Source: a virus (taxonomy: Duplodnaviria > Heunggongvirae > Uroviricota > Caudoviricetes). From it: 19,672 nt of DNA. The notes beneath the pieces were generated by a model, which was given only the letters and a program-made list of their open reading frames with translations, was not told the origin of the DNA and searched no databases. This document shows, in pieces, positions 18,710-18,830 of this stretch. The position numbers and the translations under genes are program-made. Location: the IMG/VR virus record IMGVR_UViG_2531839666_000030, positions 1-19,672 of that record; one strand, 5' to 3'. Position 1 is the first letter of the stretch; every line of letters starts with the position of its first letter.

Positions 18710-18830
18710 CGGTCAGTGGCGGGGGTCGAACCCGCATACATGATCCACCCGGAGGCAGGCACCGACTTTACCAGTTAAGCGTACACTGACCGCCTGTTTA
18801 TTTTATATTCATCCTTTATGCGGAGGCAAT

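What the first reader, a model, noticed from the sequence alone, without database searches (positions are those of the whole stretch)
18710..18830. tRNA-like structured element in the F-G intergenic region
A 9-bp stem CGGTCAGTG (18710-18718) / CACTGACCG (18784-18792) encloses a G/C hairpin at 18719-18735. On the minus strand this hairpin reads GCGGG-TTCGACC-CCCGC, a T-arm with a TTCGA-type T-loop lying directly next to the 3' side of the acceptor-like stem, and a D-arm-like GCTT...AAGT with GG in the loop is possible. I could not fold a canonical anticodon arm, so it is not a standard tRNA. It may be a tRNA-like RNA or tRNA-derived fragment, or on the plus strand a compound terminator, since a U-rich tract (CCTGTTTATTTTATATT) follows the stem.
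Basis: seen in the sequence. Interest (0 to 1): 0.5.

Follow-up and report, generated by a model that had tools for sequence, protein, structure and literature searches.

The report
Anticodon-less tRNA mimic of Mu-like phages
Between two head-assembly genes of a Mu-like prophage, on the opposite strand, sits a small gene with its own promoter for an RNA that folds like a transfer RNA but has no anticodon loop. It belongs to a conserved family, apparently never studied, that occurs in many Mu-like phages and in a satellite-like island, so it most likely acts as a tRNA look-alike rather than in decoding.

Summary
Window 18707-18795 (-) matches Rfam tRNA at 31.0 bits (threshold 29), but only if the anticodon arm is skipped. 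ARAGORN finds nothing. RefSeq labels the same spot 'tRNA-OTHER'.

The element is a 121-bp insertion between Mu genes F and G, which overlap in Mu and SfMu. A model built from 29 distinct relatives finds one copy in 53 of 79 Mu-like F-G loci, always antisense to F/G. Phages whose G is only about 41-45% identical still carry it, as does E. coli O157 Sakai prophage Sp18, where it is unannotated.

The acceptor, D and T stems and the base of the fourth arm covary: 18 of 24 pairs change on both sides and 89.7% of cells pair. The tRNA elbow nucleotides are invariant. The arm at the anticodon position is always a hairpin with a small cap (UCCG here) and differs between cassette types. Positions -1:73 pair and no CCA is encoded. 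A near-consensus sigma-70 promoter places the predicted start at the base of the closing stem.

Best reading: an independently transcribed, non-decoding tRNA mimic. How it acts (decoy, most likely) is inferred, not shown. The plus-strand terminator alternative is rejected.

The parts
18707..18795 (-). Gene for the tRNA-like RNA: about 85-90 nt including the extended closing stem. The Rfam tRNA match covers 18711-18790.
   Evidence: Rfam RF00005 31.0 bits, E = 8e-5. Family model R1 94.1 bits. RefSeq annotates 'tRNA-OTHER' at the identical sequence.
18784..18794 (-). 5' strand of the closing (acceptor-like) stem: G1-G7 = 18790-18784, plus G-1 (18791), C-2 (18792), G-3 (18793) and G-4 (18794).
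   Evidence: Pairs with 18708-18718. Covariation of pairs 1-7, -1:73 and -2:74.
18708..18718 (-). 3' strand of the closing stem: C66-C72 = 18718-18712, then C73 (18711), G74 (18710), U75 (18709) and U76 (18708). No CCA is encoded. It overlaps the F stop codon TAA (18707-18709).
18765..18783 (-). Three-nt connector U8-A9-C (18783-18781) and the D arm: GCUU (18780-18777), loop AACUGGUA with G18 G19 (18776-18769), AAGU (18768-18765).
   Evidence: The connector and the D-loop A14, GG and A21 are invariant in 29 variants. The D stem covaries, C-G/U-A to A-U/A-U.
18740..18762 (-). Arm at the anticodon position. Base pairs are G18762.U18740, U18761-A18741 and G18760-C18742. The distal stem is CUGCC (18758-18754) / GGUGG (18749-18745), capped by the tetraloop UCCG (18753-18750). 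There is no 7-nt anticodon loop.
   Evidence: Folds. The base of the arm covaries, U-A 17 / C-G 12. The distal part differs between cassette types.
18719..18735 (-). T arm: GCGGG-UUCGACC-CCCGC.
   Evidence: 100% paired across the family, with three pairs changing on both sides. GGUUC is invariant.
18800..18829 (-). Sigma-70-type promoter for the RNA: -35 TTGCCT (18829-18824), 18-nt spacer, -10 TAAAAT (18805-18800). The predicted start is about 18793-18795, the first nucleotides of the closing stem. The -35 overlaps the Shine-Dalgarno region of G on the other strand.
   Evidence: Promoter scan. A -10 box (TAAAAT, TATACT or TATAAT) is conserved at a fixed distance in diverged relatives although the spacer sequence is not.
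17378..18709 (+). Gene F (Mu gp30, minor head protein), the upstream neighbour.
   Evidence: Pfam Phage_Mu_F + MuF_C. 60% identical to Mu F over its full length.
18831..19304 (+). Gene G (Mu gp31, virion morphogenesis / neck protein), the downstream neighbour.
   Evidence: Pfam Phage_tail_S.

Best explanation
The element is a small gene on the minus strand, inserted between the late genes F and G of a Mu-like prophage. It encodes a stable, non-decoding tRNA-shaped RNA.

Shown:
- The sequence folds as a cloverleaf with a 7-bp acceptor stem extended by -1:73 (here to 11 bp), a D arm, a T arm and invariant elbow nucleotides.
- The arm at the anticodon position is a hairpin closed by a tetraloop, so the RNA cannot read a codon.
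- No CCA is encoded.
- The same gene, in the same place and orientation, occurs in most sampled Mu-like phages. Its stems are kept by compensatory changes.

Inferred from sequence:
- Host RNA polymerase transcribes it from its own near-consensus sigma-70 promoter, independently of and opposite to late transcription, so probably also in the lysogen.
- The transcript starts at the first nucleotide of the closing stem.
- In this window the 3' end is made by trimming back to the structure. One distant clade has a terminator instead.

Inferred mechanism, least certain: the RNA works in trans through its tRNA body. A protein that recognises tRNA shape (elbow, core, acceptor/T helix) binds it, and it acts as a decoy or competitive ligand. 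The most plausible target is a tRNA-directed nuclease or modifying enzyme of bacterial immunity or of a competing element. The variable arm would set type specificity.
For: Identity as a tRNA-like RNA:
- RF00005 scores 31.0 bits on the minus strand only and 27-46 bits in diverged relatives.
- RefSeq annotates 'tRNA-OTHER'.

Structure under selection:
- 29 distinct sequences, 89.7% of cells paired against 41-48% for slid controls, 18 of 24 pairs with changes on both sides, 0 of 500 shuffles reaching the covariation score.
- RNAalifold independently recovers the acceptor stem, the T arm and the base of the fourth arm.
- U8, A14, G18 G19, A21, G53 and U54 U55 C56 are invariant.
- The RNA is about 94-98% identical between phages whose F and G differ by 25-30% at nucleotide level and whose promoter spacer is only 49-64% identical.

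Non-decoding:
- ARAGORN finds none of them, yet finds all 14 ordinary tRNAs in control locus L129.
- Every Mu-like variant has a capped hairpin with UCCG, UUCG, GCAA, UCAA, 3-nt or irregular loops.

Own transcription unit:
- A -10 box ends 5-7 nt before the first paired nucleotide in about 30 distinct variants.
- TTGAAC-17-TATACT/TATAAT or TTGCCY-17/18-TAAAAT are present.
- The clade L100-L109 adds an extended -10 (TGGTAAAAT) and a rho-independent terminator on the same strand.

Accessory insertion:
- F and G overlap in Mu and SfMu.
- 53 of 79 F-G loci carry it, all antisense.

Action in trans by structure rather than by complementarity:
- A satellite-like island carries 2-3 tandem copies downstream of, and in the same orientation as, its Mor operon, next to no F or G gene. 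Their acceptor stems differ from the phage copies by compensatory changes.
Against: - No expression data were available. The RNA is not in the Hfq-crosslinked sRNA list of strain Sakai, which carries a copy. That is weak evidence, since a tRNA-like RNA need not bind Hfq.
- No partner protein is encoded next to it. F has no toxin domain, and nothing in the window points to a tRNA-binding phage protein.
- A decoy lacking an anticodon loop could not distract anticodon nucleases, the best-known tRNA-directed defences.
- Without CCA it could not distract enzymes that act on the 3' end unless CCA is added after transcription.
- The strict antisense position in every Mu-like phage also fits a cis or antisense role.
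- This window has no terminator.
- A common variant carries A58C in the T loop, which argues against very strict elbow constraint.
Confidence: 0.5

Rival explanations
1. It is a cis-encoded antisense regulator, or a case of transcriptional interference. The RNA is perfectly complementary to the F-G intercistronic region of the late mRNA. It, or the act of transcribing it head-on from a promoter that sits on the G ribosome-binding site, would damp F/G expression, for example by silencing leaky late transcripts in lysogens or triggering RNase III cleavage. The tRNA fold would only make the RNA long-lived.
For: Every Mu-like copy is antisense to F and G and lies in the same gap. The -35 box overlaps the G Shine-Dalgarno and start region. 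The insertion replaces the F/G overlap (translational coupling) seen in Mu and SfMu.
Against: An antisense role does not require invariant tRNA elbow nucleotides or compensatory maintenance of four stems across very distant phages. The RNA does not cover the G ribosome-binding site, since the promoter lies there. Satellite copies are not antisense to any gene and keep structure rather than sequence. Uniform orientation can be explained by one old insertion followed by vertical descent and homologous exchange.
Confidence: 0.2
2. It is a type-specific regulatory RNA on a tRNA-like scaffold, working like the P1/P7 C4 and P4 CI immunity RNAs. The variable arm would recognise a cognate RNA or protein of the same phage type, and satellites would carry arrays of several types to talk to several helpers.
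For: The arm is identical within a cassette type but unrelated between types, although the scaffold is shared. Cassette types do not follow the F/G phylogeny, which implies exchange. The satellite-like island carries one unit of each E. coli type, or three units with different arms. That RNase P matures C4/CI RNAs from tRNA-like precursors is from my own knowledge.
Against: There is no Rfam C4 hit. In this window the arm ends in a 4-nt UCCG loop, which leaves little single-stranded sequence for pairing. No complementary site of 12 nt or more exists in the 19.7-kb window, and the two 11-mers found are at chance level.
Confidence: 0.1
3. It is a decaying tRNA gene (pseudogene) left over from a once functional phage tRNA, with no present function.
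For: It lacks an anticodon loop and CCA. A T-loop A58C variant is common.
Against: It is conserved with compensatory changes in phages down to about 30-45% F/G protein identity. It is far more conserved than the flanking coding DNA. The promoter is conserved. The capped hairpin is maintained in every lineage. None of this is expected of a relic.
Confidence: 0.05
4. It is a plus-strand element of the late mRNA: an intrinsic terminator or processing structure between F and G.
For: A 9-bp stem is followed by a T-rich tract on the plus strand.
Against: The scan finds no terminator-like site there. The plus-strand fold is unremarkable, z = -0.81. Many conserved G.U pairs become A.C mismatches on the plus strand. 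The T-rich tract is the complement of the conserved -10 box. The T-loop consensus exists only on the minus strand.
Confidence: 0.02
5. It is a working tRNA with an unusual anticodon loop, for example a suppressor or frameshift tRNA.
For: It scores above the Rfam tRNA threshold. RefSeq calls a satellite relative tRNA-Tyr.
Against: The loop here is 4 nt (UCCG). Relatives have 3-14-nt loops with no U33 / purine-37 pattern. The -1:73 pair and the lack of CCA leave no free acceptor end.
Confidence: 0.02

Closest known systems
Canonical tRNA (Rfam RF00005), including phage-encoded tRNAs
   Same: 7-bp acceptor stem, D arm with GG, T arm with GGUUCGA, invariant U8/A14/A21, and a score above the Rfam threshold.
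   Different: No 7-nt anticodon loop. A 3-nt connector (U-A-C) instead of 2. Position 73 pairs with -1. No CCA. The predicted primary 5' end lies at the stem base. ARAGORN rejects it.
Phage tRNAs that rescue infection from tRNA-cleaving defences (T5 tRNA-Tyr versus Retron-Eco7, T5 tRNA-Lys versus PARIS; PMC11555353, PMC10802454, PMC10264068)
   Same: A phage-borne tRNA-type RNA that is an accessory gene. A satellite relative is even labelled tRNA-Tyr by RefSeq.
   Different: Those are decoding tRNAs that replace cleaved host tRNAs. This RNA cannot decode, so it could only act as a decoy or ligand.
P1/P7 C4 and P4 CI immunity RNAs (Rfam C4 family); comparison from my own knowledge
   Same: Small phage or satellite RNAs with a closing stem seen as tRNA-like by RNase P. 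Specificity lies in variable loops. They are found in temperate phages and satellites.
   Different: No sequence or model match. Those are not full cloverleaves and act through single-stranded loops. Here the variable arm is capped by a tetraloop.
tRNA-like domains of tmRNA and of bacterial Y RNAs (YrlA); comparison from my own knowledge
   Same: Non-decoding tRNA mimicry with a T arm and an elbow.
   Different: tmRNA has G3.U70, an encoded CCA, no D stem and a tag reading frame. In YrlA the ends lie in the Ro-binding stem rather than the acceptor stem. There were no Rfam hits to either.
Pseudo-tRNAs such as Bacillus cereus 'tRNA-Other' and the T4 stable RNAs C and D; comparison from my own knowledge
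   Same: tRNA-like genes that are not used in normal decoding.
   Different: They are unrelated in sequence and keep an anticodon-type loop or lie in tRNA clusters. This family has a fixed antisense position in a head-gene operon and a capped fourth arm.

Membership tests
tRNA (RF00005) | Score at or above the curated Rfam gathering threshold | tested here: met
   31.0 bits against 29, minus strand. The match treats the anticodon arm as a local insert, and the filtered whole-window scan missed it.
tRNA (RF00005) | Acceptor, D and T arms with conserved tertiary nucleotides | tested here: met
   Covariation in all three stems. U8, A14, G18 G19, A21, G53 and U54 U55 C56 are invariant.
tRNA (RF00005) | Anticodon arm: 5-bp stem with a 7-nt loop (U33, anticodon, purine 37) | tested here: not met
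   UCCG tetraloop on an irregular 8-bp arm. ARAGORN finds 0 genes. No Mu-like relative has such a loop.
tRNA (RF00005) | Free 3' end: unpaired discriminator followed by CCA (encoded in E. coli tRNA genes) | tested here: not met
   C73 pairs with G-1 and is followed by GUUA. -1:73 is Watson-Crick or G.U in 23 of 29 variants. Whether CCA is added later cannot be tested here.
tmRNA | G3.U70, tag reading frame, Rfam or ARAGORN detection | tested here: not met
   Position 3:70 is C-G. There is no ARAGORN tmRNA call and no Rfam hit.
C4/CI antisense immunity RNA | Match to the Rfam C4 model; single-stranded loops complementary to a target in the same phage | tested here: not met
   No Rfam hit at E up to 10. 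No complementary site of 12 nt or more in the window. The rest of the prophage was not available.
Rho-independent terminator (plus strand) | Compact GC-rich hairpin directly followed by a U run | tested here: not met
   The scan finds no such site at 18710-18810. The 9-bp stem encloses 65 nt.
Mu-like F-G tRNA-like family (defined here, model R1) | Cloverleaf with a capped fourth arm, in the F-G gap, antisense, with its own -10 box about 6 nt before the stem | tested here: met
   94.1 bits. Position and strand as in 53 of 53 positive loci. TAAAAT ends 5 nt before the first paired nucleotide.
MuF polymorphic toxin with downstream immunity factor | C-terminal toxin domain on F | tested here: not met
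   F is a full-length homologue of Mu F (60% identity) with only the Phage_Mu_F and MuF_C domains.

The most novel reading that the evidence does not exclude
Mu-like phages and a satellite-like element that carries a Mor homologue share a family of 'cassette-type' tRNA-scaffold RNAs. These are constitutively made, 5'-triphosphate, anticodon-less tRNA mimics whose conserved elbow and core engage a tRNA-recognising host or rival protein, for example a tRNA-directed immune effector. Their exchangeable arm sets specificity. That would make them an RNA-based anti-defence or inter-element recognition system, a tRNA-shaped counterpart of RNA anti-CRISPRs.
Probability: 0.25. Interest if true: 0.8.

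Novelty: new variant of a known kind. Interest (0 to 1): 0.6.

Why it matters
Phage tRNAs have recently been recognised as counter-measures to tRNA-cleaving immunity, but those are decoding tRNAs. This is a widespread tRNA-shaped RNA that cannot decode and is clearly under selection. It has its own promoter, a fixed place in the head-gene operon of Mu-like phages, and tandem copies in a satellite-like island.

It is present in about 3% of complete E. coli genomes, including O157:H7 Sakai, where it is unannotated or labelled 'tRNA-OTHER'. A function could therefore be tested directly in well-studied strains. If it is a decoy or a specificity RNA, it would add a new class of phage non-coding RNA. 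If it is only an antisense regulator, it is still a neat case of a tRNA fold reused as a stable scaffold.

Tried and rejected
- ARAGORN on the window and on relatives: no calls, explained by the missing anticodon loop.
- Rfam at gathering threshold on the whole window: nothing, because of filter loss. The local scan recovered the tRNA hit and no other family.
- Similarity to host tRNAs: a sensitive BLAST against 5,426 E. coli genomes found only family members and no chromosomal tRNA. In the phage collection only short T-arm matches turned up.
- MuF-toxin / immunity-RNA idea: rejected, because F has no extra domain and aligns end to end with Mu F.
- tRNA-related phage proteins in the window: none. 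The window holds an ordinary Mu early region with repressor, Gam, gp11, GemA, Mor, lysozyme and Rz-like genes.
- Trans target for the variable arm within the window: only chance-level 11-mers, one of them in the same sense as the RNA.
- Literature: nine full-text searches and two papers checked gave no description of this RNA. The Hfq-CRAC sRNA table for Sakai lists only EcOnc37 in Sp18, at another place.
- One metagenome pattern hit, L129, turned out to be an ordinary tRNA array. I used it only as a control.
- Hosts of the distant clades could not be named. No isolated phage in the phage collection carries them.

Full report
**What the window is.** The window holds the left half of a Mu-like prophage. 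A host Na+/H+ exchanger gene lies at 1-1005. It is followed by the Mu-type repressor (1298-1816, minus), transposase A (2236-4344) and B (4415-5347), then Gam, gp11, GemA, Mor, lysozyme and an Rz-like gene. After these come the terminase, the portal (15796-17394), F (17378-18709) and G (18831-19304). The finding lies in the 121-bp gap between F and G.

**Checking the observation.** Thermodynamic folding alone is unremarkable: z = -1.88 for the minus strand and -0.81 for the plus strand. ARAGORN finds no tRNA, and the whole-window Rfam scan at gathering threshold finds nothing. A local Rfam scan, however, gives RF00005 (tRNA) at 18711-18790 on the minus strand, at 31.0 bits against a gathering score of 29 and E = 8e-5. 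Acceptor, D and T arms align, and the anticodon arm is replaced by a 24-nt unaligned stretch. RefSeq's pipeline annotates 'tRNA-OTHER' on the same strand at the identical sequence in many E. coli genomes.

**An accessory insertion.** In Mu and SfMu, F and G overlap by 4 nt and there is no gap. F in this window is a full-length homologue of Mu F at 60% identity and has no extra domain. The element is present in 173 of 5,426 complete E. coli genomes, mostly on chromosomes. Among deposited phage records it occurs only in two Stx-phage records that contain an inserted Mu-like phage.

**The family.**
- Pattern searches and a search with G-protein relatives brought in many loci.
- A covariance model built from 29 distinct sequences finds exactly one copy in the window, at 94.1 bits. 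It finds none in Mu or SfMu.
- It finds one copy in 53 of 79 Mu-like F-G loci from IMG/VR. Every copy is on the strand opposite to F and G and lies just upstream of G.
- Positive loci include phages whose G is only 41-45% identical to the one here (L100-L109), a locus at about 29% (L112), and environmental metagenome contigs whose F is 31-49% identical.
- Rfam's tRNA model scores these relatives at 27-46 bits, always on that strand.
- Prophage Sp18 of E. coli O157:H7 Sakai carries a copy at NC_002695.2 5058636-5058725 (minus), between ECs_4971 and ECs_4972, with no annotation.

**Structure.** On the 29-sequence alignment the cloverleaf is strongly supported.
- 89.7% of cells form standard pairs, against 41-48% when partners are slid by 1-3 columns.
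- 18 of 24 pairs show changes on both sides.
- None of 500 shuffles reaches the observed covariation score (an earlier 13-sequence test is).
- RNAalifold, with no structure imposed, recovers the acceptor stem, the T arm and the base of the fourth arm.
- The nucleotides that build the tRNA elbow and core are invariant: U8, A14, G18 G19, A21, G53 and U54 U55 C56.
- Many conserved pairs are G.U on the minus strand. They would be A.C mismatches on the plus strand, so selection acts on the minus-strand RNA.

**Departures from a real tRNA.** These are conserved too.
- The connector between the acceptor and D stems is U-A-C, 3 nt rather than 2.
- Position 73 pairs with -1: G-C 13, A-U 8, G.U 1, U-A 1 of 29. 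Position -2:74 often pairs as well: A-U 13, C-G 6.
- No CCA is encoded, apart from ACC(A) in three environmental members.
- The arm at the anticodon position is never a 5-bp stem with a 7-nt anticodon-type loop. In this window it is an irregular 8-bp arm capped by UCCG. Relatives carry UUCG, GCAA, UCAA, 3-nt loops or irregular 6-14-nt loops.
- ARAGORN calls none of them, except one 'tRNA-???' with a 2-nt anticodon. It finds all 14 ordinary tRNAs in an unrelated control locus.

**Transcription signals.** On the RNA strand the window has TTGCCT, an 18-nt spacer, then TAAAAT at 18829-18800.
- In diverged relatives the spacer sequence changes but a -10 box persists, as TAAAAT, TATACT or TATAAT. 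It usually comes with TTGCCY or TTGAAC 17-18 nt upstream.
- In about 30 distinct variants the -10 box ends 5-7 nt before the first paired nucleotide of the closing stem. The predicted +1 is therefore the base of that stem.
- Clade L100-L109 has an extended -10 (TGGTAAAAT) and a clear rho-independent terminator right after the stem. Two environmental members have a U run there.
- This window has no terminator. Here the 3' end would have to come from trimming back to the structure, which is inference.
- The -35 box overlaps the G Shine-Dalgarno region, so part of its conservation may be due to G.

**Selection and exchange.** Between this window and phages L006 and L015, the F and G genes are 70-75% identical at nucleotide level and the promoter spacer is 49-64% identical. 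The RNA is about 94-98% identical. The Citrobacter braakii copy is 75% identical, with compensatory changes in the acceptor and T stems. Two scaffold types occur in E. coli, group 1 as in this window and group 2 as in Sakai. They do not follow the F/G phylogeny: phages with 97% identical G carry different types, and phages with 72-74% identical G share a type. That implies cassette exchange. The distal arm is the same within a type and unrelated between types.

**A second context.** An 8-kb island integrated at the ileX tRNA gene of E. coli JNEC-KY179 has an integrase, Ash-like and Icd-like genes, a RepA helicase, SSB, PerC and a Mor homologue. It ends with two tandem family members, one of each E. 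coli type. They are co-oriented with the operon, and the first has its own TTTACC-17-TACTAT promoter. Metagenome relatives carry two or three units with different arms. Their acceptor stems differ from the phage copies by compensatory changes. These copies are antisense to nothing, which favours a structure-based role in trans.

**Mechanism.** What is shown is a conserved, structurally constrained, non-decoding tRNA-shaped RNA gene with promoter-like signals. What is inferred is that it is made by host polymerase independently of late transcription, and that it acts through its tRNA body. I favour a decoy or ligand for a protein that recognises tRNA shape, with the arm giving specificity.
- The published context is that many defence systems attack tRNAs and that phage tRNAs counter them (PMC11555353, PMC10802454, PMC10264068, 10.64898/2026.07.10.737580). 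Those tRNAs decode. This RNA cannot, so the parallel is only partial.
- The main rival is a cis-antisense or transcriptional-interference role at the F-G junction. It fits the invariant position and orientation but does not explain the invariant elbow or the satellite copies.
- A C4/CI-like type-specific regulator is possible, but I found no target and no model match.
- A relic tRNA, a plus-strand terminator and a decoding tRNA are each contradicted by the data above.

**Literature and novelty.** Nine full-text searches and checks of two papers found no description of this RNA. The Hfq-crosslinking sRNA table for Sakai lists one Sp18 sRNA, at a different place, and none here. Annotation pipelines flag the element as 'tRNA-OTHER'. 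As far as these tools show, the family, its conserved peculiarities and its distribution have not been characterised. I rate it a new variant of a known kind (tRNA-like non-coding RNA). The function is open and directly testable.

Noticed in passing
L001 2990-3201 and L033 2507-10668 (E. coli JNEC-KY179, NZ_AP045176.1 744506-752667): An island of about 8 kb integrated at the ileX tRNA gene. It has an integrase, Ash-like and Icd-like genes, a RepA helicase, SSB, PerC and a Mor homologue, and it ends in two tandem members of the same tRNA-like family. RefSeq labels them tRNA-OTHER and tRNA-Tyr. It looks like a phage satellite that may depend on Mu-like helpers.
   Followed up: partly
L130, L134, L138, L140 (metagenome contigs): Relatives of that island carry arrays of two or three tRNA-like units, separated by about 23 nt ending in a U run. 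Each unit has a different variable arm, and some arms resemble those of Mu-like phage copies.
   Followed up: partly
L149 23636-23725 (-) = NC_002695.2 5058636-5058725: Prophage Sp18 of the reference EHEC strain Sakai carries a group 2 family member (82.9 bits) between ECs_4971 and ECs_4972. The record has no annotation there.
   Followed up: yes
window 18729 (A58 of the T loop) in relatives L005, L011, L020, L023, L024, L027 and others: A common variant has A58C in the T loop (GGTTCGCCCCC), and another has G57A. Records that are 99.3% identical to the window (one difference in the 146-nt query) lack the RefSeq 'tRNA-OTHER' annotation. One such base change probably pushes the detector below its threshold.
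   Followed up: partly
L100-L109, about 1040-1160 (-): In the most distant IMG/VR clade (G 41-45% identical), the RNA gene has an extended -10 box (TGGTAAAAT), a 6-bp acceptor stem, a GCAA or 3-nt cap on the fourth arm, and a rho-independent terminator (AAGCCCCG-UUAUU-CGGGGCUU-UGUUGUU). It is a complete small transcription unit.
   Followed up: partly
L119 and L126 (metagenome contigs): Two family members lie 250-550 nt apart, each with its own near-identical promoter and a different arm. Next to them are fragments similar to the C-terminus of F, which suggests local duplication.
   Followed up: no
L133, L137, L141 (metagenome contigs): Three environmental members have ACC or ACCA immediately after the closing stem, unlike the enterobacterial ones. 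The count is weakly above chance and its significance is unclear.
   Followed up: no
window 1-1300: The prophage's left end abuts a Na+/H+ exchanger family gene (Pfam Na_H_Exchanger, 1-1005). Sakai Sp18 sits in sorM instead, as expected for random Mu-type insertion.
   Followed up: partly
window whole, method note: The same tRNA-model hit (31 bits, above threshold) is reported when 301 nt are scanned but lost by the speed filters when the 19.7-kb window is scanned at gathering threshold. A negative whole-window Rfam scan is therefore not proof of absence for weak tRNA-like elements.
   Followed up: yes
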